A DNA stretch of 64,000 nt, taken from contig JAQGDQ010000331.1 of NCBI GenBank assembly GCA_030141605.1, positions 124,001-188,000 of the forward strand. The letters run 5' to 3'. Below, piece after piece: positions 3 to 41,100 of this stretch. This DNA comes from Tubiluchus corallicola. Taxonomy: Eukaryota > Animalia > Priapulida. The notes below the pieces were generated by a model. It ran no database searches, was not told the DNA's origin, and saw nothing but the letters and a program-made list of their open reading frames with translations. How positions within the stretch are numbered: the stretch's first letter is position 1; each line of letters opens with the position of its first letter. The translations under genes and the position numbers were made by a program.

Positions 3-1841
3 CGAAATAAATTTAATAGCTACAACAGGAAACTCAAAAATAAATATTATATTAATAAATGCAATGATGCAACTACACCTAAGCAAAAATGGCGTTTAAT
101 TAATGACGTACTTAACAGGTACAGAAACGATCAATTACAAATAAATAGTTTACGAGAAAATGACAGTATAATATCTGATCCAGTTGACATTGCTAACAAA
201 TTAAATTCCACATTTATCAATCTCGGAAAATTTGACAACTTGCCACACCAACATACTGCAAATATACACAATATATACAAAAACAAATCAGTAATACAAT
301 CCACTTTCTCATTTACTAGCGTCACAGAATACGACATCTTTAGAATATTAAACAGTTTAAATATAAATAAAGGAAGTGGACCCTCAGACATGCCAATAAA
401 AATCTTAAAAGACTGTGCCAGCATCATTACTCCTCATCTAACATATATCACAAACCAAGTCTTAATGCGCTCAGAATTTCCAGCAGTGTGTAAACAAGCA
501 AACATAACTCCAATACACAAGAAAGATGCTAAAGATGACGCTAAAAGCTACAGACCAATCTCAGTAGTGCACGTACTAGCCAACGTATTTGAAAGAGTTA
601 TCTACAACCAAATAAACCATTACATTGAAAATAATAAGTTACTGTCAAATCATCAATTTGGTTTTAGAAAACTACATTCTACAATAGACGCGATAATTGA
701 TGCCACTAAAAAGTGGCGTTACAACTTAAATAAAAATAAATATATAACAGCAGCATTTTTAGATCTAAGTAAAGCTTTTGACAGCCTCGATCACAATTTA
801 CTACTAGACAACTTACGCCAACTAGGATTCGATTATACTTCTCTCAAACTAATTAATAATTACCTACACAATAGAAAACAAAGAGTCAAGCTGAACAAAC
901 ACACTTTTTCAACATGGGACACACCACAGAGAGGCATCCCACAAGGTACGATATTAGGTCCATTACTCTTTTGTTTATACGTAAATAAAATTCATTTAGT
1001 TTTACATAATTCAGACTTAACACAATATGCCGATGATACAACACTCTATACAGCACAAGCAGACTTTCTAACATCAAAAAATAATCTAGAAAAAGACATA
1101 ACAAATATAAATGCAGCATTTAACTATTTTGGTTTAAAAATGAATGATGATAAGACAGAATTTATGGTAATATCACCCAAATCAAATGACATTACTTCTT
1201 CTAATGCAACACTAAAAGTAGGTGACTGTTCCATAGAACAAGCAAAAACTGTAAAATTTTTAGGCATTACAGTCGACAATAAACTCACTTGGGATGAACA
1301 GTTTCATCAAATACACAACAAGATGGCATTAAGCACGACATGCTTACGCCAAACCAGAGGCCATCTAACCAAGAAAACAAAAATTCTCATCTACAAAAGT
1401 CTAATATTACCACATTATCTATATGGTTGCACTTTACTTCAAAACGTTAAATATGAAAACTTTAGAAAACTAAATACAATGCAAAACTACGCACTTAGAT
1501 TAATTCATGGTTACTCTAACAAAACTGCTAAACAACATGCTGCTTCTTCAACAAGCTTAAGAACGTCTACAAAAATACCAATATTAGAAGCCTATCGAGA
1601 TTACAAAACACTGATATTTCTTTATAAATATATAAATAAACTGAGCATTCCATTTATAAACAATCCCTTGGCATTTATTCCTGATACCACTTTAAACACT
1701 AGAACATACAATTTAAAGCAAATTACAGTAAACAATAAATTTGGAAATAACTCTATATCAAAACAGGCCATACATTTATGGAACTTACTACACAGTGAAA
1801 TAAAACAAATAGAATCTCTCCACCACTTTAAAAAGAAATAA
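3..1841 (+). CDS. LINE ORF2 reverse transcriptase (5'-partial; C-terminal TAA may be a point mutation)
   Basis: The 533-aa ORF 240-1841 extends upstream without stops to the window edge (RNKFNSYNRKLK...KWRLIN...IANKLNSTF). Catalytic YADD is intact. Confidence 0.9.
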   Translation, partial: RNKFNSYNRKLKNKYYINKCNDATTPKQKWRLINDVLNRYRNDQLQINSLRENDSIISDPVDIANKLNSTFINLGKFDNLPHQHTANIHNIYKNKSVIQSTFSFTSVTEYDIFRILNSLNINKGSGPSDMPIKILKDCASIITPHLTYITNQVLMRSEFPAVCKQANITPIHKKDAKDDAKSYRPISVVHVLANVFERVIYNQINHYIENNKLLSNHQFGFRKLHSTIDAIIDATKKWRYNLNKNKYITAAFLDLSKAFDSLDHNLLLDNLRQLGFDYTSLKLINNYLHNRKQRVKLNKHTFSTWDTPQRGIPQGTILGPLLFCLYVNKIHLVLHNSDLTQYADDTTLYTAQADFLTSKNNLEKDITNINAAFNYFGLKMNDDKTEFMVISPKSNDITSSNATLKVGDCSIEQAKTVKFLGITVDNKLTWDEQFHQIHNKMALSTTCLRQTRGHLTKKTKILIYKSLILPHYLYGCTLLQNVKYENFRKLNTMQNYALRLIHGYSNKTAKQHAASSTSLRTSTKIPILEAYRDYKTLIFLYKYINKLSIPFINNPLAFIPDTTLNTRTYNLKQITVNNKFGNNSISKQAIHLWNLLHSEIKQIESLHHFKKK

Positions 1842-6500: not shown

Positions 6501-7633
6501 TGTTTTCACAAGGCAATTTGTTTGATTTACTGCACCCATCAAATGTGAATGAATAGAACAATAGAAAATACAAGAGAACTCGTCCATATATATATATATA
6601 TATATATAAAATTATTGTTCTAATACAAGGTAGGGCTGATCGCATTTTCGTATTTCTAACAAATTTGCTTTCAGTTATTAAGAATTTGAGTTCGATCTAG
6701 TACTAAGGCAGTTGTTGTCATTAATTATAAATATCTTAATATATTTATGCAATATTGCCAATTAAAAATCTTAACTGTTCTCAACGTTTTTCCGTAATAC
6801 TTGTATAAATTCATCATTATAGATTTATTAACAGTTATGCTTTTAAGCACAATCCACTGGTGTTTTTCTTTTGTCACCGATTAATCAATATTTTTGTGGA
6901 GCTCTCATATCTATGTTATGTCGTGTCACCCGCAGGCTCAGCTTATATTGGATGACGCATAAAACGAGCAAATGTTGCGGTAGCTAAATGAAAGAAAGCT
7001 TCCGGTGACAGCTGCGTCCAAATTTCCAAGACACGCGTATGCTGGTCATAAAATTGTTCCTAATCACGACAGATTGCTGGATCAGTCCCGTTCAGGAGCC
7101 CCGGGAAGGCATAAACAATAATTCATGAAGCCTTGTGCATTATTGATGCACATTTGGGAGGGTGAAGTGGAAAGTCAGACCGGCGGCGCGCAGTTTTGTA
7201 TGGTCTCATTCTTGGTTACATTAGGTTTTAAGTTGTATGCTAGTTCAGCATTTCAAAAAAGTCTGTTTTTCTGACTGCATTTCGGTTTCAGAAGCATTTG
7301 CTAAGCTGTATGAAGCCTGTTGGCTATTGAAGGTTTACAGTTGAGTGCAGGAGATTTTTATGTATACGTCGCTGCTTCGAAAGTGAGGCACCAGGGACAT
7401 ATTTTATATTGAGGGTTTCTTAATTAATTTTTAACTAGAGCCGTTAATTATTCAAGTACTCAGAACTGTCGCTAGTTTTAAATGTTTACGTGTGCGTACC
7501 ATAATTTTATTTCTAACGATTCGGATTGAGCATATGGACTAAAATTTGCAAACGGTTACAAGATCTAGGTTTTACATTAAACGCTATATTTTAAAGCTGA
7601 GAATTGTTGCCGAGAGCTACAGAAGGCAGAAAA

Positions 7634-8080
7634 ATGGAAGGCGATGTGGTAGCTGATACCTCTGATCTCATTCAGAAAGGAGAGTCGCCAGATTCAGCTG
7701 TATTTACCAAGGTGGAGTATTCTCCAAGCAGCACACCACCACGCACCAAGCCGAAAATGTCGACCATGTTTGGATTTGTTGCTGATGCTCATGAAAACAA
7801 AAGTATCCTGAGTGGTCCGGAAGTTGAAAGTCCTTATGAACGACGTCTGCGAGAAAAAGCTGAGCGTGAAGCCATCACTGCACAGCGGGAACAGGACTTC
7901 CAGAGCCCCAGCAAATATGGAACGCAGTCGATTGATACAAATGTAGGATCTACTGGCGAAGACGCAAATGTCAAAGAAAGTGTAAATGAGAATATGGCAG
8001 GTCGTAGGCTACCAGTAACCGAAGTGATTGAAGCCAAAACGGCTAAGGAAGTTGTTGCTGAACCTTGGAGAGATAACAAG
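7634..8080 (+). CDS. Alternative first coding exon (long isoform) of the DHP/CRMP gene
   Basis: AAAATGG start, 149 codons, ends AAG|GTAAGA in phase 0, matching the acceptor at 23347. Contains PRTKPKMSTMFGFVADAHENKSI, resembling the vertebrate CRMP long-isoform motif (recalled as PRQKYGGMFxxVEGAyEnKTI). Confidence 0.72.
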
Positions 8081-8741: not shown

Positions 8742-8855
<114 letters not shown>

Positions 8856-10352
8856 CCCAGTTTTCGGTGAAATCCCTTTTTTGTTCTTTATTCAGTTATC
8901 AAATAACCTTTGTCAACTACTCGTTTGGCAGCTTTTGGTCAGAATTTCGCATATTTTAACTTTTCTAGGCCAATTTTTCAATGTTTTTGTGCTTTTTGTT
9001 GATCGTCGCTAATGATCGCAAATCGACTAAAATATTTTACTCTGTGGCCGATTCGTCTGTTATTCTCTATCGAGTGGTGGTTATGCCACTCAAGCCATCC
9101 AAGATACAGAAATTGATTTGTTGTCGATCTCTGAATGATTACTGATCGTATTCCACATGAGAGAGTTTGGTTCTTTGGACAGAGCTTGTGTAAGTTTTCC
9201 ATTTGACATTAATACTGCAAAAGCGTTTCTAACAGCAGGCGAGCCCAACTATTAATGACATCCCAAACTAACATAATTTTCAACAGCAAAAATATTCCAC
9301 GAGGGTGTTGCACGTGTTTGCGAAAGCTAAAATTGAAGTACAGCACTACCGTAAGATATTCAGTGTGCTCTACTAAAACTAGGCATGTTTTAAGATAAAA
9401 ATTCAAATTTACCGGTGTGCTCACGCATGAACTGTCCAACGTGTGTAGTTTGTCAGAAACTAACACATCAGTACTGAAAGGTACAGCACATATTTTTTGT
9501 GCAATACGATGAATGCGTTTCCAAAATGCAGGCGCTATTGCCCGTCTAACTAGCGAATGGCGATCGCGAACGCGAAATTGTGTTTGTGTGGTAATCATTC
9601 TTTCATGTAAGTAATTTCTAAAAAAATAGTATGTTTACTTTCAATATTTTAAAGAGTAGATTGTTTTGACCTACAGTTTAAGATTGGGTCCGGTTTTGCT
9701 TTTGCTGTGCCGCTTCATCCAAAACCGTACTTTAATTCTCGAGACGTAGAAATTCAACTCCTTTTCTTTTTGATCATTTAGTGACCGCTAATTAACTATG
9801 TGAAAAAAGAGGCTACATGTATTTTGGCCCTGAGGCTGGGCGCTGTCGGGATGAGGGGTTGGGGATATTGAAACGCCAGAAACCACTACACACTACATTT
9901 CATTTTCTTCCAAGTTAGGTGGAGTGTTTTGGGTACTTTAGACCTTGTTTAGGGCAAAAGTTGGTTATATTCAAGCAAATAATTCTGCTTTAAAATTTCC
10001 AAACTTAAGATTTTAATATTCAAAAATTACTTACGTACTTTTAAAGTGTTTCTTGCACAGCGATGTGTTTTTAACTTTTAATAATAATAATAGTACCTGC
10101 TATCAAATTTAGTTCACTAAACTACGTAAATCATTCATACACTGTTTAAGTACTGCTTTTCAATGTACTTAATGTACATTAACTTTTCAATGTAAAGGTT
10201 ATAAACATGTTTGTAAAGTTTGTAAAAGAAAAATATAGACCGTCATAATTTGTTTGAATTTCTGAAACAAATGTTAGAAAAAGTATATCAGAAAATATTT
10301 GTATCTTTGTTTAGTGAAAACACGAAACTTTGACTTGTGACTTTTTAGACTT

Positions 10353-10537
10353 TAGTATAAATACTTTGTTTTTTAAACACATTTGTCAGTCTTTATTATA
10401 TGTAATTATGAGCTCCCCATTGGATACAAATAGATATAAATATAAATACATATAATGATATAGCCCTATAAGTATAAATACTTTGTTTTTAAACACATTT
10501 CTTAGTCCTTATCATATGTAATTTTGGGCTCCCCATT
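10353..10537. repeat. Two diverged ~67-bp direct repeats
   Basis: AGTATAAATACTTTGTTTTT...GCTCCCCATT occurs at 10353-10420 and 10471-10537. Confidence 0.85.
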
Positions 10538-10651
10538 GTTTGCACTGGTTAGGGTAACCTAGAAAATTTTCTGGGCAAATTCCTTTTGCCCCCTTACTAA
10601 TTTCCTCTCGCACGCCAGTGTAATCGACTGTGTCCTATCTACCCATTAAGA

Positions 10652-12079
10652 TTAAACCTGCTTTAAATTTGCACATGTGTAAGATAATGTAAGTTCATAT
10701 AAGAGAACATTTCCAAGTTTCTCTGTCTGACTTTCGTCAATCTTCCAGCATTTGTTGCCCGTGAACTCGTCAAGGGACAACGCTGTGGTCTCATTGTTGA
10801 AATGCAGTTGCAGTTCTTTTTCAGAATAACTCCAGGATCCTAGTTCCAATATAAAATTCGTAGGTTCTGTTCTACCAAGGTCTGGGTTGTACACTTCAAA
10901 TTTTACAGGTGCTTTCCAAACAACAGTTCCATTGTGATTTGCTATAACATCAACTTCTTCGTGTGGAAATCGCTTTATAGTATAACTGTTGAAAGAAGTT
11001 AGTTGAAAGAAGTTGAAACATCAAGTCAGTTTACTAAATTAAATTCAGTTGACTGTTAATTAATTCGCTACATACTCAGATACCGTTGGCGCTATATTAA
11101 TTTTATAAACTCGATTTGTAAGTGTTTGGTAGAACTGCTATAAAGGTGTTTTCACATGTGCAAAATATATTACCTGTTTTATATACTATTACTATAGTAT
11201 ATAGTTTACCTGTTGAGTAATGATACATCCGGTTTCCAGATGTTATTTTCGTCTATATGTATAAATTCAGTATCAGATTTCTCCACGTCCCATCTAAGTC
11301 TGTCATCTTTCCATTTCTAAATTTGAATAGAAAAGGTAAATTAGATTCGATATCGAGATGAAATTTTCAATTCTTTCATTCGCTAGTTTCTTCATTCATT
11401 CATTCATTCATTCTAAAGACGATAATTTTAATTATACGTGCTTACAGTTGTCATGACTCCCACGAGAATCAGAACATTGGCTTCCTCATCTACACTGAGA
11501 TGTCTAAGAGACAGAGTAAGTTCGACATTTAGTGGTCTCTCATCGTGCTGCTCTGGGATTTGTACGAACCCTATGTATTCAAGGCGCTTGGCGAGGACTT
11601 GCTCTGGTCTTCTTCTGTCGCGACCAATTCCTAATCGATCAAATAAACTGGCTTCACGACTCTTACTTTCTGATTGGGGAATTCTATCAAAATCCGGATC
11701 AATTCCCGGGCGAAACAGATTCGGGAAATTGTCGCTTCCAGATTCGGAATCGCTGTCTTCAGTGAATCGATCAAAGAAATCTCCATCTCTACCTCCACGA
11801 AATCGTTTAAAAAAACTTGGCCTGCCATTTCTCAAGCCTGTAAATTATTCGTATAAGCATTTACAACGTGTACGTAGCGTACATGTATCTACACAAAGGA
11901 TAAGTGAAAAAATTAAAAACTTTAATTAGATGATGTCGTCTTGAAAATATTGCATCGTGTAAATTTTACTTGTTTTGAACGTGTTTTGAAGAATTTTTCT
12001 CACCTGCGCGATGCCCTTCTGCTTGAGCAGCAAAGTTAAGACCATAAATAATCAAACACGCCAAGCCCAATTTCATCAT
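10652..12079 (-). CDS. Secreted AChBP-like protein B (nAChR ligand-binding domain only; no Cys-loop cysteines, loop C deleted), ~302 aa
   Basis: Exons 12079-12004, 11837-11446, 11316-11210 and 10985-10652, all GT-AG and in frame (909 nt). Signal peptide MMKLGLACLIIYGLNFAAQA; motifs KWKDDRLRWD, IWKPDVSLLN, GTVVW and LGSWSY; stop after beta10, no TM helices. Confidence 0.82.
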
Positions 12080-12353
12080 GCCATACACGTTCTAAGATAC
12101 GTGAAATATCACAACAGCTTATTTCTTTCTTTAGCTAACCAGTGTTACTAAGTGCCCAGAACTTAGAATGCTGAAATAAACTCTTATTTTGTGATTTGGC
12201 AAGCTGGTAATGGCAACAGCTGGCTACTATTTAGTAAGAATTAATTAAAAACTGTAGAGAGTGATTCATGCGTAACATCTGTCATTTACTTCCTTCCCCA
12301 TCCATCAGACAAAAAATAGCTTCAAATACTTATTTTTTTACATGTACATATGG

Positions 12354-12357
<4 letters not shown>

Positions 12358-12439
<82 letters not shown>

Positions 12440-12460
12440 ACGCACACGTACACATACACG
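12358..12460. repeat. (CA)n/(CACG)n microsatellite
   Basis: Direct reading. Confidence 0.95.
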
Positions 12461-13122
12461 TATACACATATATACTAGTTAGATAACGAAAAACAGTGTT
12501 TAAATCTTTTTCCCCTGTTCTCGACTGGTGTCTCGTGTCTCTTTTCCACGTGATTGGTGTCCAAAGTTTAGATTTTTGAACTACTGTCTTTTTATTAATA
12601 AAAAGCCCACTTAACTATTACGAACTTGCTAACAGCATATACAGTCCACTGCTTAACTCATGTAATTTTATGTAGTAGGCCCTACAGTCGGACTACTTAT
12701 CCGTGTGAATTGTTATAGTAAGGTTGTTTATTAATAAAAATAGTGTATTACTTGCTATTATTTAGTATAGCTAAACTTATATTATCTGACTGTTTAGTTA
12801 AAAAAAACAGTAATATTTTAAGTATTAAATATTAACATATCTTTTTATTGACAACTACTGTTACACCAGCTAAGGTCTTTACTCATCTGCACTGTGCCAC
12901 GTCAACTTCGTAGCAATAAACAACATTTTATTTCTAACTTAACGCTTGCTACTTTACTGTAGCTCCGGACGAAACTTTATTTCTTAAAATTCTCACCTAC
13001 TTTATGAATTTAGCGGTTATAACACGAAAACTATTGAGAACATTTAGTAAAGTAAATTCTATTGTTTTTTACATTTTGCGTCAGTTAATTTTTTTATTTA
13101 CTGTAATCTGGTTCACACGTGC

Positions 13123-15203
13123 TTACAATTTTGCAACAGTTAGATCATAATTGAACTGTATAAATGGATCAGGGCAGCATGGATGATAGTTTTCCTCACG
13201 CACAGCGGTATTGTTCAGTAAATTCCAGTCATGATTTCCTTCATAGTCAGTGACATCCATCGATTCCAGATCATCAAAGAACGTAAAGTCCAACTCGCTA
13301 GAGATGTAAGACCAGGAACCAAATTTCAAAGTAAACCTAGATGGTGTGTGCTGAATGAAATCTTTCAAGTACACCTGGAATCGACATGGAGTGACCCAGA
13401 TTATCGTTCCAGATGATTGTAGCACTAGATTAACGGGATGGTGCGTAAAGAAGTTTGTGGTGTAGCTGAAATAAAATACAACAGCGAATTGACTATTGAG
13501 TAGCACAATCTGAGTGGCAACATCAAACTAATACGTGAGTAACTTCAAATTAGCGAAAATAATCACAAAGAGTGTGACTGAGTCACGTCAGATAATTTAA
13601 CATTTTAAAGCGAACCGTTAATTATTACGGACTTTTCATATGTCAGTTATTACGGCCTGTACTTTCCTTTAATCGTAAGCAATTAGTCGCTAAAAAGTTA
13701 CCTGCTAAGAAAAATGACAATACCTATTGAAAAGAGCTACATCTGGTAACCAGATGTCATCTTCTGTGACAACAATTGATTTAATATCGTCGTAGTCCTC
13801 TGGATCCCAGGTTAGGCGATAGTCTGTCCAACTCTGAAAAGATTTTGAATTTTCAGTTATGGCACTTTTAATTTGTACCGTTTTACAAGCATGTGTGAAA
13901 GTGAATTAGTGAGGTATGTATTACTTGGGAAAAGCGGATAGAGCTTCGAAAAGAGAAATTGCATTGATTTTGGTACTTGTAAAACTAACGTTGCATGTTT
14001 ATCGTTCGACTCATACAAATGTTTAGTACTTGCAGGCCAAGACTAAGACCCTAAATATAAAATCATAATATGGGTACTTTAGCGCATTTACCTGTTTACT
14101 ATAAGTGTTCACTGTCAGCAAATGAGATCCCGTGTCCTGAAATTGTACGAACATAATAAGCGATTGAACAAATGCTTTAAACGCTCCTACAGCCTTAGAT
14201 CAGACCTACCCTGGATAACTCGTTTCTCCAAAACATGGAGCTAGTTGCCAATTGTTAAGCTTTAGTGCCTAAGTGCCAATTAAGTTCAGGTAGGCAAACT
14301 AACACGCCAAGCTTTACTGAATTATTTACAACATTTAGAAAAATCACTTTAAGGAAACTTTATAAATACATAAGCCAGGTTATTTTGATACATACCACGT
14401 CAAGATGCAGCAGAGAAAGTCCAAACGCCACTTTCAGGGGTGTACCAAGCTCCACTATAGGTATGACGACATGGTTGTAATTGTGAAATAGTTTCTTGTA
14501 AAGCTTTTCTCTGACACTACCTGTTGCCAACCACGCGTTGTGTTCAGTCATTGTCGGGCACGACGTTTTGTCTGTTAAGCAATATTATGTTCATTTTTTA
14601 CATTGTAGTAAAATACACTATCGTGACACTGCTCAATGTAGTATTTTTTTCTATAATTAAACCGTCATATTGAGCTTATAATAAATCATACTACATAATC
14701 TAACATGTTGCAAATAGTAAGACAGCTTAGCTAAATGTTTTTATGATAACAACGTGAAATTTATATATAGATGCGTTTGAAAAAATATGTAACTTCATTT
14801 TTCGAAGCAGTGCCAAGCTGGATATAAAAACTTGTGGCAACCATCTTCAACTACAATATGGCGCCACGTATTACACGTGTCTACGAAAATCTCCACAACC
14901 AAGCATCTTTGTAAACAATTTGCAGTAATGTTACATTAACAGCTTGGTAGAAAATGCAAAATTCTATACTTTGTAGATGGCACACTTACAGATTAGTGGA
15001 AAGTCTCTGATAAAAAGAGAAAATATTATTTCACTGTTTTAGTAAATCTAAGTTGCTATATAAATTCCAATTTTGTGCAATATAACGGATTCTCATTTAC
15101 CTGAACATGTTTTTGCGCCGTCTTCGTCACTTTGATCTTTTCTCTTAGCAAAAACTACGAAGAGAAAAATCAGCACACAGAAAAGTAAGGTAGCCGAGCG
15201 CAT
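13123..15203 (-). CDS. Secreted AChBP-like protein A (nAChR alpha-type ligand-binding domain only; no Cys-loop cysteines, loop C CC kept), ~258 aa
   Basis: Exons 15203-15101, 14571-14396, 14136-14092 (45 nt), 13833-13724 (110 nt) and 13465-13123 (777 nt in total). The 45/110-nt exons are typical of nAChR genes. Signal peptide MRSATLLFCVLIFLFVVFA; motifs KLYKKLFHNY, WTDYRLTWDP, IWLPDVALFN, KFGSWSY and YHPCCPDPF; stop right after beta10 with a nearby AATAAA. Confidence 0.88.
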
Positions 15204-17280
15204 TTTCGTCTAGCTTTTCACTTACGCAAAACCTTTTTAATATTTGTTCAACTTATTTTCAAACACCCAGTCTTCATTCTCCAAGGACATCATACGAAGG
15301 TGGATCTAAGTAACATATACATATTCTTTAATGTACTTTCAACTGTCATTTCTAAATTTGTTTTGCAAATTTCTTTAACAGGCTCCTTATGTTCACGTTT
15401 GATAGGCATTTACTGGCCCTTCTTCTACTAGATTTATAATAATTATTTGTGTTAATAAAATATATCCGGTGACGCCTCCTACATCCATTCGTAACTGCTT
15501 GACAGAATTCAAGAAAACCACCAATAATATTAGCCGAAAATTTTAATTCGCAAGTTCTATAGTGTAATCCTAGTACAGTTTTAATATTGGGCAACAATTC
15601 TGCAAAGCTACGTTTCTCCTGCTTTTCCAGTCCTCCCTTTCCAGAGCGCAAAGATTCAATTAAGATTTGAACTTACAACTAGAGAATGTAATATGTGCTA
15701 CGCTCTTACAACTGATAAAGCTTTTTATCTATTTGTCTACCATTTGAGTAAACGGCCATGCCAACCAGTACAAATTATAAATTCGATCAAAAGCTGATAT
15801 GCCAAAAATGTGATGAACTCTTTAGAAAAAGCATGTCGCTGTATAATCAGTCGTGTGAAACATGAACCTAGGCTAGTCCAGAACTTGGTGAACTTAATCC
15901 CATTTAATTCTGGGTATTGGAAGAAGTTAGCCCTACTTACATATAGATGTTTGATTAAACTTCCTAATTAAATCCGAATTTCTGAAAGTAAAATTGTGTG
16001 AAACACGAGTCGGTCGAAAAACTGATAAGTTACAAATCGAACATATACAAGTGGAAACAGACCTCACGCGATCATATGTAGGCCTGTGTAAGCGACGCTA
16101 AGCCTACTGGTTAACCGGAATCGTACCAGTACTATTGCAAAGCCTATCGAGGACTAACTTCGTTTTCGTTTTCTGAAGTCATTTTGCTTTCCTTTGTATA
16201 TAAATAAAATACATGTATTTCATATCAAAAATAAAATATTGCTGCTATTTTTTGTTCTGGGCATTTTTTATATTACATTCTATTTATCGTCGTATTACGT
16301 GTAACCGTTAGATTAGCTGGATTAACTATAGGGCTGTTAAAACAGGAGTCTGGAGCTGTTGCAACTGGTGTTTTGTGTTCGCGCAAGGCCGACTGGAAAA
16401 TTTGTAAAGGTTCTTAGTCAACTACATAGGTTTATTGCTTGTTAAACTGGGCTTATTCAGTATTTTCCTTAGTAATCCAACCATGTCTAACGCAGCTAAC
16501 CATAATGGTTGAGGTGTGTCATACTGTTAAACTTAGAATGTTCATTATTGTTCGAAGCTCAAACTAAAAGTCCTGGAACGCCTAGTCGCTCTGCGCTGAC
16601 CTATGTGTGTGCGTGTGCTCTGCAACAAATGATTACGATTTGCGTGCACGTGTTTAAAATTAATCAAGTTATTATAAATTAGATACATGTTAACCAGATG
16701 TATATTTTATATGTGGAATTTGATGTTAACTGGTTAACTTCTAAAGCAGGACTTTGTAAATATATGTGGACGATAGATGTCGTAGACCGAGCTTAATTTT
16801 AATCAGTTTATCATACAAACAGGTTTGGGCGACCCCAAGGCGCTTGAGTAGAGTTTAGAGAACTTAAAACAATATCACGTGAAAGCCTGCTTGACAAGGG
16901 AGCGTGGTGATTTGTACTCACAAACTGGTATTTTGCTATTTTTTGACTAGTTTAGCTTTCAACGCAGTCTTGGCAACTTTCTGAGATATTCCAATTTCTA
17001 TGTGTATACAACGTGTGCAAGAATTAGTTTACCCACATACTTACCTATGTTTGTTGTAGTACTGGCGGAATGTTTGTTGTAGTACTGTGTTTGGAATAGC
17101 GTAAATTTAAACATATTTGTGCTGATTTGAAAAGATAACTGTTATACGTCGAAAAAAGCTATAGGTTTATACGTGATGTGAGTGGGTGAATGGTTAATGG
17201 ACATTATAGGAAATTGCTTCCTTTTTAACGGGTTTCTGGTAAGTCGTGAATTATTTCAATTACCGTAACGCGGCTTGACA

Positions 17281-17709
17281 ATGTCTCATGAACGTCCGCA
17301 GAATCCAGAGAAGTCACTTCAACAAAGTGAACCGCCACATCATCGTCAGTTTCAGATGCCCCATTATTATCCATACAGTGCTCTTTATGGTCCATCACCG
17401 GCTCCTACAGGACCACCTATTATTTATCCTAGCTATGCAGGTACGCGGCCTTTGGCATACCAGATGACTAGCTCATTAAACAGTCCATCAAATGAGCCTG
17501 TGAGTAATGCATCACACCAAGACCAAAATGTCTATAAGAGGACTCCAACGTCACCTGTTTATTATGGTCACGACTTGGATAACAGTCCGTCTGCAATCTC
17601 GCGTCAGCGAGGGTACATGAAGAACGTGTCAGCGATGGACAATTGGTACACAACGCCCCTGCCGGTACATGCTTCACCTCCACCACAACCTGCGTCTATA
17701 TCGGAAAAG
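17281..17709 (+). CDS. Candidate alternative first coding exon of the DHP/CRMP gene (Pro/Ser/Tyr-rich)
   Basis: ACAATG start, 143 codons open, coding-like GC content, ends AAG|GTAACT in phase 0. Confidence 0.6.
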
Positions 17710-18770: not shown

Positions 18771-19184
18771 ATTGGCTAGTAGTCAAGGCAGCCCAAAGTT
18801 TAACTTATTTCTTATAGCTGGCTTAATTCAGCATTTCCCAAATCGCTCACATTAGAGTAACTATTGTTGTAGCGATGGCATCGTTTGTTGGACATAGGCC
18901 TAGTTCTGCATTTGTATTTTTATAAACCAAGCAAAAAATTGAACTTTATACACTGCAGCTAGTAAGGTATATAATCATGTTTATTACATGTATTCCAAAA
19001 CGAATTTATTCAGCTTTGGTAGTCTACGCTGCATTTTCTTCTGATTGAAATAATACACGATCTGAAGTCTGACGACTGAAGTCTGTCTGTCTGAGTCACG
19101 CTATTGTACAGCCAATGAAATTCTTGAAATGCAGCAAAATAAAACGGAAACTTTATTGTGCGTGTTGGTGAATGTTGTGCGAAA

Positions 19185-19331
19185 ATGTGTAACGCTCCTG
19201 TTCGTCACTGTCTCCCTCCTCGATTAAGCCCTTGGTTTAGCGGAGGATGGAAGTCAGAGTCAAATACGCAGTCTAATGCATCAGATTCTGATGAAGACGG
19301 GCAAAGCAGTTTCACCGACCAGGATAAGACG
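19185..19331 (+). CDS. Candidate alternative first coding exon of the DHP/CRMP gene
   Basis: AAAATG start, 49 codons (MCNAPVRHCLPP...SDSDEDGQSSFTDQDKT), ends ACG|GTAAGA in phase 0. TGAGTCA (19092) and CCAAT (~19112) lie upstream. Confidence 0.45.
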
Positions 19332-20557: not shown

Positions 20558-29022
<8,465 letters not shown>

Positions 29023-32111: not shown

Positions 32112-35100
32112 TTAGATGGACATTCGTTGTTTTTTCACCTCGTTACAGAAGCCATCATCATTCCTAGTTATATCTAAATCATCAGAAGAGTATAGCTGCC
32201 GCTTCAAAGGAGTCTTGAATGTCACCTCCTCATCTTCTTCGGAACTTGGGTCATCTCTGGAGGTCATGTTTGTGTCAGAATTTGACAGTGTTTCCTGAGG
32301 CTGTGTCATCATGTGCAGGCTTTGCTTATATGCTGGTCTTGCTCGGGAATAGAACAGAATATATGCTTGGCAACTGAGAATGTCTACCTCCGAGTACGGC
32401 TCTAGTCTTCCGTCGTTGCACTGTATCCAAGAATCTAAATCAAAAATCCATAAAAACAAATCAGATTTTAAAAAAGGACAGATAAATGGATTTTCCACAT
32501 AAATAGATGATCAAAATGGTCAGCAGATGGCACCTGTCATACTGTGGAAAACATGAAATAACCATGAGTTACTGAAAAGTTTTTTCCTGTTTTTTCTGAT
32601 TACTTCATTATCCCATTGTGTTCTAAGTTAGATGTTGACTCATTTGACTGCAGGTCAAATTTGTCATATTGATTCTTTTGAATGTTTTAGCTCGGTCAAT
32701 CAAAACATACCGGCATTGCTATTCCAGCAGTAGCAAGTATAATGGCCAGAACCAAAACCACGACCGTGATGTATAATCGCTCCACTGAGCTCATAAGCAA
32801 AACTCTGCTCTGGTGAGGCAGGGTTACAGTATGACTGAACATTCAACTTGTGCTTGAAATTTACATGAACTTTGATCTTCTCCCGATGAAGTCTTCCCGC
32901 CCACCTGCAATCACGAAAATGTATCACAAAAGGTTGGTAAAGTTCTTAAGGCCTAAAATACTGCAGCAAAATGTAACAAAAAGTAAGACAGCTATATTCA
33001 GTGAAATGTCTTTCATGGTGATCTCAAATAAAACATACTATTGACACAAAGTCACTACTATACTATTTAATAAACCATTGAAATGTTATCCATGAACAAT
33101 CACCATCTATAATGGAAAAGGATTATTCTCAGTATTATAATCAATGTTTGCTTAACGAAACGCATGGTTATTTTACTCTTCACTGCAAGAAAGGTAACAG
33201 TTTGTTACAATAGCAGCACAAGTTTTTACCTAAAACGTTTCAAATGAAGACGTAAAACATTTGGCAGCCGGTGCACCATGAGACTTTTATAAGCTGAGGT
33301 GTAAGTCAGAGGCTTTTTGGAAGTCGAACGTCTTCGACCTGAAAAACAAGGAATAACAATAATGAAGTCCAAAGAGAGGGGCATGCAGCTGGTACATTGG
33401 GTCATGGGGCCCAAGCCGCGGAGCCCATAAATATTAAATTTTGTACGTTGGCATGACCAGTATTCGTGTCAATTCGAATTAGATGCCCTACTTACAAATG
33501 TATATTCTTCTTGCAATACCTGCTGCTACTGTTACCTCTGCAGAGTGCTCATTCAAACAGGTTCAAAATTTCCTTAGATCCACAATGACACAGGGACGGC
33601 TAGTAGACCTGGCAAGATTGAGTCCTGACACTGAATTTGTTAAGAAGGTCAATCTTGATGAGGTTGTTCATTGTTTTGTAAGGAAAAAAGCCGAAATAGC
33701 AACTTCATTTAGCAGAAAATGAACTGGCACATATTATATGGTTCAGTGTGAATAAACATATTTCAGATATAATAAAGACTATTGAACATAAATTATTGCA
33801 TTATATTTCATAGTCTTCATGCCCTGGTATAGGTGAGGGAGGGGGCCAAAATTTGTCTTGCTCTGGCAGGTAAAAATTCTTTCGGTGGCCCTGATGAAGT
33901 CAATAAAGCCCCATTCAGTTTTTTCTCAAACATATTTAAAATGATATTTGAAATTTGACCACTCATTACATGGTAAAATATTTTCTTGGTAGAATTTCCC
34001 AGTTTTTTTATGGGATACGAAAGATTGCAATATTACACAGGCATGACTCAAAAAATTTCAGAAATATATTTTATATAAGTACAAAAAACAAAACAGTGGG
34101 AACAAGAGAACCAAAGATATGCTTAGTCACAGTACATAGAGAAAGACCCATGATTAGACACTACAAAAAGTAACAAAAATAAATGATGGCACTATAAATT
34201 TTGTTTCACACAAAAACAGCAAAAAAATCAGACTTCTATTCAATGTAACGGACTTACTGTTACATTGATCACAGGCATAGACGTTTCCTTCTAACGATTC
34301 CTTCTCTGTAAACTTTGCCAACATTTCTAGATAAACAAAACATTTACTGTTATAAAGGTTAACTTTAGGCAACTGGTATGTGAAATGAAGTTTTGATTTT
34401 TAAATTTTAATTATTAAAATAGTTTAATAAAATTTTCTTGAGAATATTAAGCACAATCATAAAAAAGCAATTGTACAACCAATTTTGGATTGTTACAAAA
34501 TTTAAGTTTTGCTGCAATCAATAAAAAGCTAATTCTGAGATACTGAAAATATTAAGTATTAAAAAACTTAAGTGTTTTTTGCCAATTCAATGAAAAATAA
34601 AGAAATCACAATCTGGCTCCTACTTGCTTTAAAGCTATAACATGAAATGCATAGAAATCAAAACTCGAGGCACAAAAATATCAATAACATATTGATAATA
34701 AAAGCAACATGCATAAACTTTTAACTGAATATAAAAATAAGCAAAAACAAATAGAATTCTAACCTATTGTAAAAGTGTTGAATAATAACAGCCGAGTAAG
34801 CCAAAAATCGGTGCCCAAATGCATAATCCAAATAAGTTTACACACACCGCACTGCTCACATAGCTGCTAGATATTAGCAGGTCTAGTACATTCAACAATA
34901 CTGTGTAAAGTTACCATGCATAATATATTTTGTGGTTCACGTGAACTTGGCAAATAACCAAGCTTGGGCGCAGTGATTACCTAGTGAAGCACATTTTTCT
35001 TGCCAGCAATCCATTCTGTGTTATGAAAATAAGTTTCTGAATCTTGGCACTTTGGGAGTTTACATGATTTTACTTTTAAATTAATAGTTTACAACTTAAA

Positions 35101-38100
35101 TTGTTTTACGTCTGAATGTCAGCTGAGACGAAGTGAAGCATCAAGACTACGGTAAAATATTATGTAACTAAATGGTGAAATGCAAAATTGGAGTGTTGTT
35201 TACAATGTATTATGATTGAAAAATCAGCAATAAAAAATCAGCCTTAACGAAAATCTAAAAAATACATGAGCAATAAAAGTTGAATTTGAAAAAGTTTCTT
35301 CGTGGTTTTACTTTCAGCACTGCAGACATTTTTTTAGTGGTGGGGTGTGGTAAATACTCTTTGCATTAAAATTTTATCTGAAGCACTGCCAAGAGTTACT
35401 GAAAGGTTTCATCAAATTTCAGAAGTCAATTAAGATTGCAATAATGATTTATTAATAAACCTGTTAAATCACAACTTTCTTCTGAGAAGGTACCGTCAGG
35501 TGAATTTAAAATATTGTAGCGATCTGGAAACTCCAATGATAAATCCCAGAATGGTTCGTATGTGTGTGATTTGTGACCGCAAGCTATACAAGACACCTAG
35601 GAAGTTAAATACGAGAAAATAAAAAAGAAGAAACAATTCTTTAGCATTTGCAGTGTCCATACAGGCAGTCACATGAGGAGACACGTACATGTGCTAATTT
35701 TGAAACGATTCTACCTATTAAAATATTTGACTGTATAAATACCCCCTGCCACTAGGGCCAGCTTATGGTCCTTTGGTGCCTTTAGGTTAAAGAAGTTGTG
35801 GGTCTCTTACAGAAAAAGCCACCCTTTAACTTGCTTGCACCTGTTTTTCAATATTTTTAGTCATAATGTATTTTAGCGACATTTACATAGCTTGAAATAA
35901 ACTTATTGCAAATTCTTTAAATAATCAAGAATAGCAATCTTTTGTTTGTCAATAAAAATACTCTTTAAGAAGATTCCACTATTTTACTATTTATTGCAAA
36001 CCAAATGAAAAAAAACAGACTTTCTACCAAATGTTTTCAAAGCTTGAGGGCCCTAGGCTGCAGCCTATACTAGCTTATAGGATAATCCGGCCCTGCCTGT
36101 CACAATTTATTCTTAAAAGCGATTGATTTTTAACAAATAAATGCATAAAATTCATCAGTATTGATAATCAGTACACATTACTTCAATAACATTTACTCTA
36201 TATAATAAATGCGTAAGGAAATATCCAAGTTGGTTTTTCTATTTATTGTTACCGGAGATAATGAAAAAAGCAATTCCAAATATATTTAAATGCTGTAGTT
36301 TATCTATAGATAATATCTACAGCATTAGTTAATAGTCAGTCTCACCTCACTGACTAGCTCTCCTTGAAATATTTCTGTCACAATTGTATGGTGAGCACAT
36401 TTCTGATTAGCTGTTGTTATAGGGACATACACCCATCCACGTGGACAATTACGATTAAGATTCTCTGTGAAACGTCGCTGAGATAATGAGCTGGTTAATT
36501 CTGTATGCACTCTTTCTATCAACTCACTGTAGAAACAAATTATAAGAATTACTCACTCTGTCACTTAACTGTACATCAGGCATTTAGTTATAGATCTTTC
36601 ATTTAAGGCAAAATATAAATTAGTACCAACAATAGTGTTTAAATGTTATCATTTATACCTTAAACTCCACTCACATTTTGACTACTATAACCACCCTATA
36701 ATAAGATATAATAAATTTCTAAGCTGTTATGCTTAATTGCAAACCAAAACCCTCCATAAGTCGGCACAGTTGAAACTACGTAAAAAAGACGCTTCAAATT
36801 AAAATGTATCAAATGTGGTCAAATGTCAATTTTTCGTTTTTTTATAAAAACACATGTTAAATATATTTGACTTTTATATTCTAACATCAAATAATCAAGA
36901 AAGTGTTCAGAAATACTAAAAATTTAATTTTACAACCCCGAACTCACTTTTTATCTAGAAACTGGTACTACAATTGTATAAAAAATTGTATTTTCAAACT
37001 TCGATAGCAGCTCGTAGAAGAGTCGTTTTGCTTCGTTTTTTTCTGTTGCCAAGGCCAGAACTTCGTCAGGAAGAGCTATCTACTGGATTTAGTCATAACT
37101 TTAACGTGTTCTTGCAAAATCCATAACAACCAACTTTTGTGCGGTTGCTAAGATTTCGTAGAACTGCGACAAAAACAATGGCTAACTTTAAGAGCAATTT
37201 TCTCAAGGTTACAGTTTTCAGTGTATAGCCTGCACCTCAACTTCAATGTGGATTATCTCAGTTCAGAAATAACATAGAACGATGATTTTGGTATTAAAGT
37301 GACCCTTATGAAATAGAGATTCAGGATGCGTGAATAACTAGAAAAGCTTAATTGCCGACTTATGGAAGTTTCTACCATGCAAACACACATATAATGAAAT
37401 TTTCTAACAATATAAATACTCAGTTATAAAAACCACCACAGCTGGCCAATATTGTCAAAATGAAGGGACGGACATTTAATTTTTTTTTGCAATCTAAGCT
37501 ATAGATTATTTAAAAAAAAGAAAATTAAGATAAATACGTTACCATAAAAATTCTTGCGCATCTTGTTGTGCAAAACCTTTAAAAGAGGGAATGGCTTTCC
37601 AGACGGCATGTAACATGGAATGTGGGCTAACGATCGCCCACTTGCCTGACCATAACACACGAAATAAATCATGCAACTCATGACATAAGGACCTGAAATG
37701 ACAAAAATATAATGGAAAAGAATTATGCTGTCATAAGAAAGTTATGAAATGCAATAACTATAATTAATAGAATATTTTTATGTATGGTTGGTAATAACCT
37801 GTTACTGATAACTTTTAACTGAATAACAAAACATTTTATCCTTTTATTCATAGCCTATAATTTAGATACTGCTCAAGCCGCTTGATATTTTTTATCTTTG
37901 ATAAGACAGAAATGTACGAATGAGCCATAAATGATTCATTTGTGAGATGGTTTTTGGTTAGGTTTAGAAAGATCTTTGATTCATTACTTCTTCTAGATCT
38001 ACAAAAGTGGTTTCTTTACTTTCATCTGTACAAGTATTAATACACCAGTGCATCATAAGCAACACCTAAGTGGCTGACCATATGCACACAACTTTCTTAA

Positions 38101-41100
38101 ATTACATCACTACATAAATATAGCATCAATCCTTGTTCTTCATTTTGCAATTTCATTTTCACTTCCGTAATACTTTTTCATCTTTAAAACTTTATTAGCT
38201 ATGTGCATTATAGAGTTACATATGACAAATGTATTTCATGCAATAAAAACATGTACATACACAGTTTCTGCATCCTTTTCTTCAACTTGCATTTTCTGTA
38301 TACCCGTGTTGATACTTGGAGAGCTTCCACCATTTAATCCGCCTTGTTTACGACGGTGCTGTTTAGCATTGTTGTTCTCAGGTTTGTTTTTGTTAGACTC
38401 ATTGTCCTTGTGCTCAACATGCTATGAAAAGGAAAAAAAAGCGGTTCAATGATCTATGCATAAAACACACATTTTCAAGTTGTAACTCTAAAAATACGCT
38501 ATACATGCAACTAATTATTAAAATACTTGCTGTAAAGTATAAAACCATTTTGATTTTCTGGCACTTTTTTTCTACTAACAAGCCTAAAAGTTATATCTAC
38601 TACCTATTTTCTAACAAATCATAAGAATAATTTGTTTTGTGTTGCTACATCCATTCCATTTGTAGTAGTTTAAAATAAATAAAACAATCTAAATACCCAC
38701 TTGTGGTAACATGATATTGCAAATGAGGTCAACGGAAACTAATAATTTTGCAGTAATTTCAGGAATTCTTAAAACAAAAATCCCTAAATTCAGCCTAACT
38801 ATTGACTTTTGTATCTTTAGTTCTCTATTTGGCTAATCAGAGGAATAAGTATTTAATGTCTTGCAATACTCCATTAGCATATAACAAGTCAACCATGCCT
38901 TTAAACTTTCATATTGTTTTTGCGGATTGTGCAAGGCCAAACAAATAAGAATACGTCCTTAGAGAAAAACAGACAAATACTATATTTTGTTAAAAAAACA
39001 TTTTTCCATGTAATAAATGGGTTTATTGCATATGAAATAAATATGATCCAATTTCCTTAAATTTTCCAAAAAAACAACGCTAAAAACTTGGCAACCTTTT
39101 ACCAAGATGGCAGTATGGCAAGCAATATAATAATGCATGCAGATAAGATACTACAACCACATAAGGTACTTGAGTTTTGATGAGTGATAAAAATGGCAAA
39201 TTACGCACATACAGTATGACAATTCACCTTAAATGAGCACAGTTTTTTACTTTTCCAAATATGTCACACATAATTTAACACATAAAGCAGAATTACATGA
39301 GTGCTTATTTGTCATAAGGTTACTGAGTATTACATGACTGCTTATTTGTCATGTGCTTACTGAATATGACAAAATTACCTGCTTTGCTTCCATAGTTGTT
39401 TGTCTGGCATATGTGCGTTCATAAACATTGTTCTCAGGTAAAGAGTTCTTCTTAATCTTGTTCTGCTTGTTTGGCTTTCTAGTGTAGACGTTGCAATGAC
39501 TAACCTCCATGTTAACAAAAAATTCTCGAAACTGTGGTATGTGCCTGAGAAAAACACAAAGTAGAGTTGAATGTAAATAACAGAATTTTTTGCAAATGAA
39601 AATCTTAAACAAGTTTTACTTTATTTGCCAAATGGGAAACTTCATTTGGTATATATGTTGTATTCATAATTATGTTATTTTTTTACTTATATCAATTTTG
39701 TGTTATTTTAAGGTTCTAGAATATAGTTAGGCAGCAAATGAATTCTAACATGTTGAGTAACTGAGTTCATATTATAGCTTCACCATTTGCCCATGACAAA
39801 ATTTCTTTGAAATATAGATGAAAAAAGTGTAAACTACCATTAGTAAGAAGTCTCAAAGGATTGATACTTGATATCAATCAAATTAGCTGGGCGTTACTTT
39901 ACAACAGATTTGATGATTAAGGTAATCCGCATCATTTCTTTTAATTCTGCAAATCTTTGCAATTATTCACTAGCCGTTACTCTTTAAATAATGTACCACA
40001 AAACTTCACTTATTTTATTCTCAGGAATGTTACAACTTACCCAAGAACTTGTATAATAGAGTTCATGTAGCAGGTGTTACCAAGATTTCGTAGTCCTGTG
40101 ACACCTGGTGTAAACACTTGTTTTCTCTTTGGTGAAATGGGTGCTGTCACCTCCTTTGGTGGCGTTAAAGTGGTGGACAAGTCTTTCATGTAGCGAGCAT
40201 ATGCACGCCAAGCTAAAAATGTTTTTTGAAGGAGCGTTAAACGTCGATGTCGGAAAGCTGTAAATGTCTTATCCGCATCTCTTAATACAGACTCTGCAGA
40301 TCTGCAATAAACACGAAAGCAGTGTTAAACGGTAATTCAAATCAGTTAAAAACATAGATGAACCTTAGCATTTTTACCGATAGTGAAAAACAATAACAAT
40401 TCTTATCTTCATATAGGATTGTCATTGCTGTTTTGTCAATAGATAGAATTTAAGTTTTATTGCAATGGCAGTGTAAGCAAAAATATCAACGGAAAATGTA
40501 GCCATAGCATAATGTTGTGAATGTTTGTTTGATTAGGATGGCTAGCCAAAGAAATGGAAAAACAGTAGTCACAGATTGGTATAATTTTCACAGAGACAGA
40601 AGATTAATGTTTGAGACAAAGTTTTGACAACCAAAAAATTGAGACAAAAATTAGGACAATTTTTTTTGGCTAAGTATAGCCTTCTACAGATACGCAATAT
40701 ACATTTAATGGCTTTGAAAACACAGTAACAAACTGAGAAAATTATTTTCTTGTCTCAATATTAAATCAACTTTCTCAAAAGTGAATCTAATAACCAAGAA
40801 ACCGCTAATCCAATAATGCACATTATTTCAGCTTGTTTAGTTATAAACAACTATTGACCAACAAAATCAGCCCTGGAAAATGCCTTTGCAGCTGAGCTCA
40901 TTTCTGATTGGCCTAAAGTAAAGCTTTTCATATAAATAAAGTAGCGAAATTAACTTACTCAGAATCGCTAGAAGAACTGAAAGCTGATCGCATAAACCTA
41001 CTGCTTCTACCTTCGAGATTCTCAAAACTTTGAGAAGCAATGGCACTAAGCATAGTTCTAAGCAGCTTGATTTCACCAGCAGCATTATCATTCAACACAT

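What the first reader, a model, noticed from the sequence alone, without database searches (positions are those of the whole stretch)
10652..15203. Tandem pair of secreted AChBP-like genes lacking the Cys-loop cysteines
Seen: two spliced genes each encode a signal peptide plus a complete nAChR-type extracellular domain, ending just after beta10 with no transmembrane exons. In both, the Cys-loop is shortened and lacks both cysteines: A reads WVTPCRFQVYLKDFIQHTPSRFTLKFGSWSY and B reads WKAPVKFEVYNPDLGRTEPTNFILELGSWSY, versus WxPPAIYKSSC-x13-CxxKFGSW. Known: molluscan AChBPs and nAChR subunits keep this disulfide, and Cys-less pLGICs are mostly membrane channels. Inference: this may be an undescribed soluble family derived from an nAChR alpha gene, since the 45/110-nt exon pattern is kept. 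It could act as a ligand or toxin sink, or as a structural or mineralisation protein like the AChBP-related ACCBP of pearl oyster.
Basis: partly seen in the sequence, partly recalled or inferred. Interest (0 to 1): 0.85.

Follow-up and report, generated by a model that had tools for sequence, protein, structure and literature searches.

The report
Secreted nicotinic-receptor heads without Cys-loop bond
Two neighbouring animal genes encode only the outer, ligand-catching part of a nicotinic acetylcholine receptor, with no channel and without the family's hallmark disulfide bond, and they likely make secreted ring-shaped binding proteins whose altered pockets would catch something other than acetylcholine.

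Summary
Gene A (15203-13123, 5 exons, 258 aa) and gene B (12079-10652, 4 exons, 302 aa) are open, GT-AG spliced genes. Each has a hydrophobic N-terminus and a nicotinic-type extracellular domain that stops after beta10, and both lack the two Cys-loop cysteines. No transmembrane exon was found in the window. Spliced A-like sequences exist (an 84%-identical database protein and contigs of a probable RNA run); B has no RNA support yet.

Three corrections. Only A keeps the 45/110-nt exons and the vicinal cysteines. A 10-residue loop is ordinary among soluble relatives. Cys-less soluble forms are not unique: 3 of 143 relatives are such, one a Capitella gene model, probably from separate losses (tree unresolved).

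Additions. A has His at the key Tyr190 position, where 27 of 27 soluble relatives have Tyr. B has lost the binding site, carries an 80-residue charged extension, and probably gained a new disulfide. My paper searches found no description of such proteins, and the scan had not noted this on other DNA. Verdict: new variant of the AChBP-like kind; ligand and role untested.

The parts
15101..15203 (-). Gene A exon 1 (103 nt): start codon, predicted signal peptide, start of short N-terminal extension
   Evidence: best 11-residue hydropathy 3.58 at residue 7; SignalP not available
14396..14571 (-). Gene A exon 2 (176 nt): rest of the extension, helix alpha1, beta1
   Evidence: X2 contig covers 14395-14572 and continues into exon 3 letters
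14092..14136 (-). Gene A exon 3 (45 nt): beta2/loop D, Tyr105 at the Trp55 position
13724..13833 (-). Gene A exon 4 (110 nt): to loop A, Phe143 at the Tyr93 position
   Evidence: Pfam E 6e-11
13123..13465 (-). Gene A exon 5 (343 nt): Cys-less loop (13368-13333), Trp196 of loop B, loop C with His239 and Cys241-Cys242, beta10, stop
   Evidence: P0001 ends at the same position; AATAAA at 13098
12004..12079 (-). Gene B exon 1 (76 nt): start codon, predicted signal peptide
   Evidence: best N-terminal 11-residue hydropathy 2.4; weaker than in A
11446..11837 (-). Gene B exon 2 (392 nt): about 80-residue Arg/Asp/Phe-rich extension with four F-[DK]-R-hydrophobic repeats and a basic cluster (11622-11608, possible convertase site), then alpha1, beta1, beta2 (45-nt exon fused in)
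   Evidence: cleavage is inference
11210..11316 (-). Gene B exon 3 (107 nt): to loop A, Leu190 at the Tyr93 position
   Evidence: Pfam E 3e-07
10652..10985 (-). Gene B exon 4 (334 nt): Cys-less loop (10888-10853), Trp243, loop C shortened by 8 residues with no vicinal cysteines, Cys271 and Cys296 at the foot of the beta9-beta10 hairpin, stop
   Evidence: Pfam E 1.7e-06; AATAAA at 10397

Best explanation
Genes A and B encode nicotinic-receptor extracellular domains without channel helices or Cys-loop cysteines, likely arose from one truncated receptor gene by tandem duplication, and likely make secreted ring-shaped oligomers in which A would act as a sink for a non-acetylcholine amine or alkaloid and B would act as a non-binding or accessory subunit. 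SHOWN: the gene structures, the stops after beta10, loss of both cysteines, the pocket residues, and that B's closest relative in my set is A. PREDICTED: the canonical fold and ring-type subunit interface of an A orthologue. INFERRED: once the channel was lost, the beta6-beta7 loop no longer had to couple to membrane helices, so it shortened and lost its disulfide. A keeps Trp149, the vicinal cysteines and a ring side chain at all five cage positions, but has His for Tyr190 and Tyr or His for Trp55, which should weaken acetylcholine binding. B keeps only Trp149 and probably closes its shortened beta9-beta10 hairpin with a new Cys271-Cys296 bond. UNTESTED: secretion, pentamer, ligand, tissue, expression of B.
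For: Open spliced frames. P0001 is an intron-free A-like protein from a 1083-nt contig, 84.4% identical over 205 columns, with the same Cys-less loop and the same end. Contigs of run X2 (RNA is a guess by the tool) join exon 2 to exon 3 letters and run past the end of beta10 into non-coding-like sequence. No TM exon. P0001 model: pLDDT 95.4, pTM 0.90, TM-score 0.87-0.92 to nAChR domains. Four-copy model: score 0.84, best of 3 controls 0.00, runs agree in at least 87% of contacts, partner pLDDT at least 85. That mark was reached by 21 of 30 solved pairs and 0 of 23 single chains (eukaryotes 17 of 29 and 0 of 30), and the pass may be from memory of solved rings. B against A: blastp 113 bits, next non-A hit 72 bits among 146 domains. 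Tyr190 is kept in 27 of 27 soluble non-FPxD relatives and Trp55 in 23 of 27; A has neither. In mouse AChR, loss of Tyr190 costs much ACh binding energy, while Y93F and Y198F cost essentially none (PMC11655062, passages). Cys271+Cys296 = Gly283+Asn284 in residue sum, the register of a hairpin with a two-residue turn.
Against: No ligand data at all. A still has Trp149 and Cys-Cys, and BgAChBP1 also has Phe at the loop A position (PMC3423370, passages), so plain acetylcholine binding is not excluded. A+B monophyly is weak in the careful tree (53/89; 93 in the quick tree), and B is a long branch. A single origin of all six Cys-less soluble proteins was not rejected (AU p 0.113). Of 16 codons differing between A and X2, 9 are amino-acid changes and 7 silent: only modest constraint. 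The models are of P0001, not of A or B. The B disulfide rests on alignment and arithmetic, and MAFFT placed B's C-terminus differently.
Confidence: 0.55

Rival explanations
1. A is an ordinary acetylcholine buffer like glial AChBP, and the Cys-loop loss is a neutral side effect.
For: Trp149, the vicinal cysteines and ring residues at all five cage positions are kept. Y93F and Y198F are tolerated (PMC11655062). The fold is canonical.
Against: His at Tyr190 in A and P0001, against Tyr in 27 of 27 soluble relatives; Trp55 replaced. It does not explain B, which has lost loop C.
Confidence: 0.2
2. The proteins, B above all, are structural or matrix proteins of body fluid or cuticle, like ACCBP, using the ring as a scaffold; B's charged extension binds ions or polymers.
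For: B has lost the site and gained a charged repeat extension. Both are acidic (pI 4.98 and 5.17) with 1 and 2 N-glycosylation motifs. ACCBP and probably BgAChBP1 bind CaCO3 (PMC3423370, passages).
Against: A keeps a pocket that looks selected. ACCBP is described as glycan-rich, and these have few motifs. Unchecked earlier notes place this genome near priapulids, which from recall have no carbonate shell.
Confidence: 0.12
3. B is a decaying duplicate and only A is functional.
For: B is a very long branch (2.49) and has lost the binding site.
Against: At 32.5% identity to A B still has four in-frame GT-AG exons with no stop over 302 codons, a hydrophobic N-terminus and the core motifs. A dead copy this diverged would be expected to carry stops or frameshifts.
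Confidence: 0.07
4. These are the 5' halves of membrane channel genes whose transmembrane exons lie further on, or the stops are errors.
For: The TM scan found only 8 of 16 control fragments at E<0.01. The window ends 10.6 kb past B. A Cys-less membrane form (P0075) exists among the relatives.
Against: No TM match in the window. The donor-like sites in A's last exon are at 13199 and 13126, and B's last exon has none. P0001 ends where A ends. The X2 contig reads past beta10 into a stop (read by hand). X1 contigs match both stop regions with 0 differences (X1 may be the source sample). The FPxD coupling motif is gone.
Confidence: 0.06

Closest known systems
Acetylcholine-binding proteins (Lymnaea, Aplysia, Bulinus, Biomphalaria; Capitella teleta AChBP, PDB 4afg; spider CsAChBP)
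   Same: Signal peptide plus one nAChR-type extracellular domain, no channel; variable loop length (PMC4569296, passages); A has the vicinal cysteines and Trp149.
   Different: Both Cys-loop cysteines, called strictly conserved in PMC3423370, are absent. Tyr190 is His in A. B lacks the loop C tip. A keeps nAChR-like intron positions, whereas the Biomphalaria genes share only intron 1 with nAChRs. By sequence P0001 is nearer nAChR subunits (E 2.8e-33 to about 1e-31) than Capitella AChBP (7.5e-24) or 'soluble acetylcholine receptor' entries (1.1e-19 or weaker).
Uncharacterised soluble Cys-less database proteins: Capitella teleta ELU06282.1 (CAPTEDRAFT_200491, P0137), P0095, P0022
   Same: Hydrophobic N-terminus, extracellular domain only, both Cys-loop cysteines missing, vicinal cysteines kept.
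   Different: They keep Tyr190 and have different loop sequences. In the tree each sits with Cys-retaining proteins rather than with A/B (98/97 for the clade holding P0137), though one origin was not rejected.
Eukaryotic Cys-less (Pro-loop) pLGICs (Jaiteh et al., PMC4795631; schistosome clade, PMC9874803)
   Same: No Cys-loop disulfide. The loop proline appears to be kept in A and B (alignment). PMC4795631 notes a few secondary losses.
   Different: Those are membrane channels that keep FPxD (PMC9874803, abstract and legend). A and B are soluble, lack the Phe and Asp of FPxD, and match nAChRs best.
ACCBP of Pinctada and Haliotis
   Same: Soluble, acidic nAChR-domain protein with a possible non-neural role.
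   Different: Described as glycan-rich, di-pentameric and CaCO3-binding (PMC3423370, passages). None of this was shown here, and no named ACCBP was in my tree.
Alvinella Alpo4 orphan receptor (PMC10338036)
   Same: nAChR-like pocket with loop A Phe that binds a non-acetylcholine ligand (CHAPS) and shows no acetylcholine binding: a precedent for a repurposed site.
   Different: Alpo4 is a full membrane channel with both loop C tyrosines.

Membership tests
AChBP | Signal peptide and one complete Neur_chan_LBD domain | tested here: met
   (signal peptide by hydropathy only)
AChBP | No transmembrane domain | tested here: met
   for B genomic evidence only
AChBP | Cys-loop disulfide | tested here: not met
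AChBP | Vicinal cysteines in loop C | tested here: inconclusive
   Present in A (Cys241-Cys242), absent in B
AChBP | Aromatic cage Tyr93, Trp149, Tyr190, Tyr198, Trp55 | tested here: not met
   A: Phe, Trp, His, Phe, Tyr. B: only Trp149 securely kept
AChBP | Homopentamer | tested here: inconclusive
   Four-copy model of P0001 scored 0.84 against 0.00; five copies cannot be run and the pass may be from memory
AChBP | Binds acetylcholine or nicotine | not testable with these tools
   needs assay
AChBP | Groups with molluscan or Capitella AChBP in a tree | not tested
   No named natural AChBP was in my trees; only ranking by E-value
nAChR alpha subunit | 13-residue Cys-loop with FPxD | tested here: not met
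   10 residues, no cysteines; 84 of 87 canonical hits have 13
nAChR alpha subunit | M1-M4 channel helices | tested here: not met
Cys-less Pro-loop channel clade | No Cys-loop cysteines | tested here: met
Cys-less Pro-loop channel clade | FPxD motif and transmembrane domain | tested here: not met
   only the Pro appears kept
Cys-less Pro-loop channel clade | Branches with protist Cys-less channels | not tested
   No identified member of that clade in my trees
ACCBP | CaCO3 binding, heavy glycosylation, di-pentamer | not testable with these tools
   Only motif counts: 1 and 2 N-x-S/T

The most novel reading that the evidence does not exclude
An independently evolved, two-subunit secreted chemical-sink system in a little-studied animal lineage. 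A supplies a re-tuned pocket for a non-acetylcholine ligand such as an environmental or dietary alkaloid. B is a 'non-alpha' partner made as a pro-protein, activated by cleavage and stapled by a new disulfide in place of the Cys-loop bond. The two assemble into soluble mixed pentamers, repeating the alpha/non-alpha logic of channels without any channel.
Probability: 0.15. Interest if true: 0.8.

Novelty: new variant of a known kind. Interest (0 to 1): 0.5.

Why it matters
In channels the Cys-loop disulfide names the family, and described AChBPs keep it. These genes, with three other database proteins, are natural evidence that the bond is dispensable once the channel is gone. That supports a coupling role rather than a folding role for it, and it can be tested directly by expressing a small soluble protein. 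They also suggest that soluble receptor heads arose and were re-tuned several times in invertebrates. AChBPs are standard crystallographic and toxin-screening surrogates, so a natural one with His at Tyr190 would be a useful new scaffold. The physiological role of AChBPs is itself unsettled (PMC4569296, PMC3423370).

Tried and rejected
No whole genome is held, so further paralogues elsewhere and the parent nAChR gene could not be sought. No RNA holder was listed for the stretch. X2 laid no contig on B's exons, and the search with B's last exon found nothing among 69 candidates of 194-2000 aa: neither is evidence that B is silent. The P0001 search found only itself among 49 candidates. JGI metagenome contigs: 196 pattern matches, none confirmed. 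The single-sequence fold was useless (pLDDT 42.5) and was replaced by a 94-sequence alignment. B could not be folded whole because no spliced B protein is in the databases. The ESM Atlas gave only generic Neur_chan_LBD clusters. A weak Pfam hit of A exon 5 to CARDS_D3 (E 0.042, 14.3 bits against cutoff 27) was dismissed as noise. The shorter acceptor for A exon 2 (14520) was set aside because the X2 contig extends to 14572. B's extension as an RFamide precursor was rejected by eye (no RF-G-basic motif). The Capitella AChBP paper (PMC4780051) is not held. Rows dropped: 6 of 149 hits had short coverage; the trees used 71 and 43 of 146 domains with the Cys-loop columns removed. The lineage of the organism was not tested by me.
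Full report
OBSERVATION. Both genes lie on the minus strand, head to tail. Gene A has exons 15203-15101, 14571-14396, 14136-14092, 13833-13724 and 13465-13123 (103/176/45/110/343 nt; 258 aa). Gene B has exons 12079-12004, 11837-11446, 11316-11210 and 10985-10652 (76/392/107/334 nt; 302 aa). All introns are GT-AG and neither frame has an internal stop. Pfam Neur_chan_LBD hits 5 of 6 exon pieces tested. A profile built from relatives hits the window at E 2.6e-30, against 0.084 at best in 5 shuffles, and shows no third copy in the window. Each protein has a hydrophobic N-terminus and no later 19-residue segment above 1.52. The two Cys-loop positions are L178/F189 in A and N225/F236 in B, 10 residues apart; 84 of 87 canonical channel hits have 13. 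The loop proline appears to be kept, while the Phe and Asp of FPxD are lost (alignment). The 45/110-nt exon pair is present in A only. That these sizes are typical of nAChR genes is recalled, not from a call.

SOLUBLE OR TRUNCATED? Profiles of M1-M3 and M4 built from 54 hits found nothing among 3577 six-frame peptides of the window (best E 0.44 and 0.27); 8 of 16 control fragments scored E<0.01. P0001, from a 1083-nt Logan contig, is an intron-free A-like protein, 84.4% identical over 205 columns. It has the same Cys-less loop and ends at the position of A's last residue. I could not fetch its contig, so its mRNA origin and true stop are inferred. Run X2 (RNA by the tool's guess; same species label but about 91-94% alike) has a contig over 14395-14572 whose 13 loose letters match the start of exon 3, a splice junction, and another over 13128-13241 that goes on for four codons to a stop (read by hand, assuming the printed letters adjoin the joint). 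X2 shares only 3 of its 9 amino-acid changes with P0001, so three versions of A are known. X1 contigs match both stop regions without a difference, but X1 may be the source sample. B has genomic support only.

FOLD AND ASSEMBLY. With a 94-sequence alignment P0001 folds at pLDDT 95.4 and pTM 0.90, and matches nAChR extracellular domains at TM-score 0.87-0.92. Four copies scored 0.84 against a best control of 0.00, with contact agreement of at least 87% and partner pLDDT of at least 85. The mark was reached by 21 of 30 solved pairs and 0 of 23 single chains (eukaryotes 17 of 29 and 0 of 30). The job is unlike the two-copy calibration, and solved rings may be remembered. It shows that the interface looks intact, not that it forms.

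POCKET. A has Phe143, Trp196, His239, Phe246 and Tyr105 at the Tyr93, Trp149, Tyr190, Tyr198 and Trp55 positions, plus Cys241-Cys242. Among 27 soluble non-FPxD relatives Tyr190 is invariant and Trp55 is kept in 23. In mouse AChR, Y93F and Y198F have essentially no effect on acetylcholine binding energy, while loss of Tyr190 costs much (PMC11655062, passages). A therefore likely still binds a cation at Trp196, but acetylcholine more weakly. B keeps only the loop B Trp. Its beta9-beta10 hairpin is 8 residues shorter and has no vicinal cysteines. Cys271 sits at the Glu175 position, and Cys271/Cys296 are symmetric about Gly283-Asn284, so I infer a new cross-strand disulfide on the face where the Cys-loop bond was lost. 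B also has an extension of about 80 residues rich in Arg, Asp and Phe, ending in a basic cluster that may be a convertase site (inference).

ORIGIN AND RELATIVES. By sequence P0001 matches nAChR subunits better than AChBPs. B's best relative among 146 domains is A (113 against 72 bits), and the two share loop length and the last intron position, so one loss before a tandem duplication is likely. Tree support for A+B is only 53/89 (careful tree, 43 rows) and 93 (quick tree, 71 rows). Of 149 non-self hits, 6 were dropped for short coverage. Of the 143 left, 24 keep both cysteines, lack FPxD and have no TM segment by my hydropathy rule (the set includes one probable engineered chimera and may include fragments). 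Ten residues is their commonest loop length (6 of 24). Four lack both cysteines: three soluble (P0137 = Capitella teleta ELU06282.1, P0095, P0022) and one membrane form (P0075). Each soluble one groups with Cys-retaining proteins, P0137 at 98/97, but forcing all six Cys-less soluble rows together was not rejected (p-AU 0.113). Repeated loss is likely, not shown.

CONTEXT. A dihydropyrimidinase/CRMP gene lies on the plus strand, with its first conserved exon at 23347 in phase 0. Three upstream plus-strand frames end in phase-0 donors (8080, 17709, 19331). If the first is an alternative first exon, A and B are nested antisense in an intron; this is untested. Unchecked earlier notes call this genome priapulid-like; I did not test that.

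LITERATURE. PMC3423370 (passages): both disulfides are called strictly conserved; ACCBP and toxin-sink roles; gene structure unlike nAChRs. PMC4569296 (passages): spider AChBP, variable loop length, role unclear. PMC4795631 (passages): a Cys-less clade and a few secondary losses; the terms AChBP and soluble do not occur in its main text. PMC9874803 (abstract and legend): Cys-less channels keep FPxD. PMC13174522 (passages): molluscan Cys-less clade; no occurrence of AChBP or soluble. PMC10338036 (passages). No supplements were read. Ten searches (listings only, except the papers above) showed no paper on a soluble Cys-less AChBP-like protein. 'AChBP' with 'cys-less' gave one paper, on a prokaryotic chimera, and 'acetylcholine binding protein' with 'priapul' gave one spider paper. 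The library lacks most subscription journals, including the Capitella AChBP paper. The scan's own index held nothing similar.

VERDICT. A real, well-formed pair of AChBP-like genes. They work like AChBPs in architecture but fail the membership test on the Cys-loop bond and the aromatic cage. Most likely A is a secreted ring-shaped sink with shifted ligand preference and B an accessory or structural subunit (0.55). Interest 0.5.

Noticed in passing
window 7601-8080, 17269-17709, 19143-19331 (+) and 23347 onward (+): Three low-complexity open frames end in phase-0 donors upstream of the first conserved, phase-0 exon of a dihydropyrimidinase/CRMP gene: candidate alternative 5' exons, which would nest genes A and B antisense in an intron.
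   Followed up: partly
window 3-1838 (+): Long open frame with reverse-transcriptase-like motifs of a LINE element (identification from recall).
   Followed up: no
window about 9230-9700: Very high-copy dispersed repeat just downstream of gene B (summed contig depth above 40,000 in X1; also in X2).
   Followed up: no
window about 32112-41182 (-): Multi-exon ubiquitin-specific protease gene (Pfam UCH, E 4.6e-06); USP44/49-like by recall.
   Followed up: partly
window 10354-10422 and 10471-10538: 69-nt direct duplication (89.9% identical) in the 3' flank of gene B; the first copy holds the AATAAA at 10397.
   Followed up: no
proteins P0008, P0010, P0026, P0034 (Lineus), P0053, P0056 (Haliotis), P0119, P0126, P0133 and others: Many unnamed or mislabelled extracellular-domain-only nAChR-like proteins with signal peptides are in databases (24 of 143 hits by my rule): AChBP-like proteins look far more widespread than the literature lists.
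   Followed up: partly
protein P0075: A 396-aa nAChR-like membrane protein that lacks both Cys-loop cysteines and FPxD but keeps the vicinal cysteines and a short TM region.
   Followed up: no
gene A residues 33, 39 and 172: Two cysteines in the N-terminal extension could pair with each other (a similar pair is in Capitella P0137). Cys172 is conserved in P0001 and has no obvious partner.
   Followed up: no
window 8745-8851 and about 12358-12470: Long (CT)n and (CA)n/(CACG)n microsatellites, the second between the two genes.
   Followed up: no
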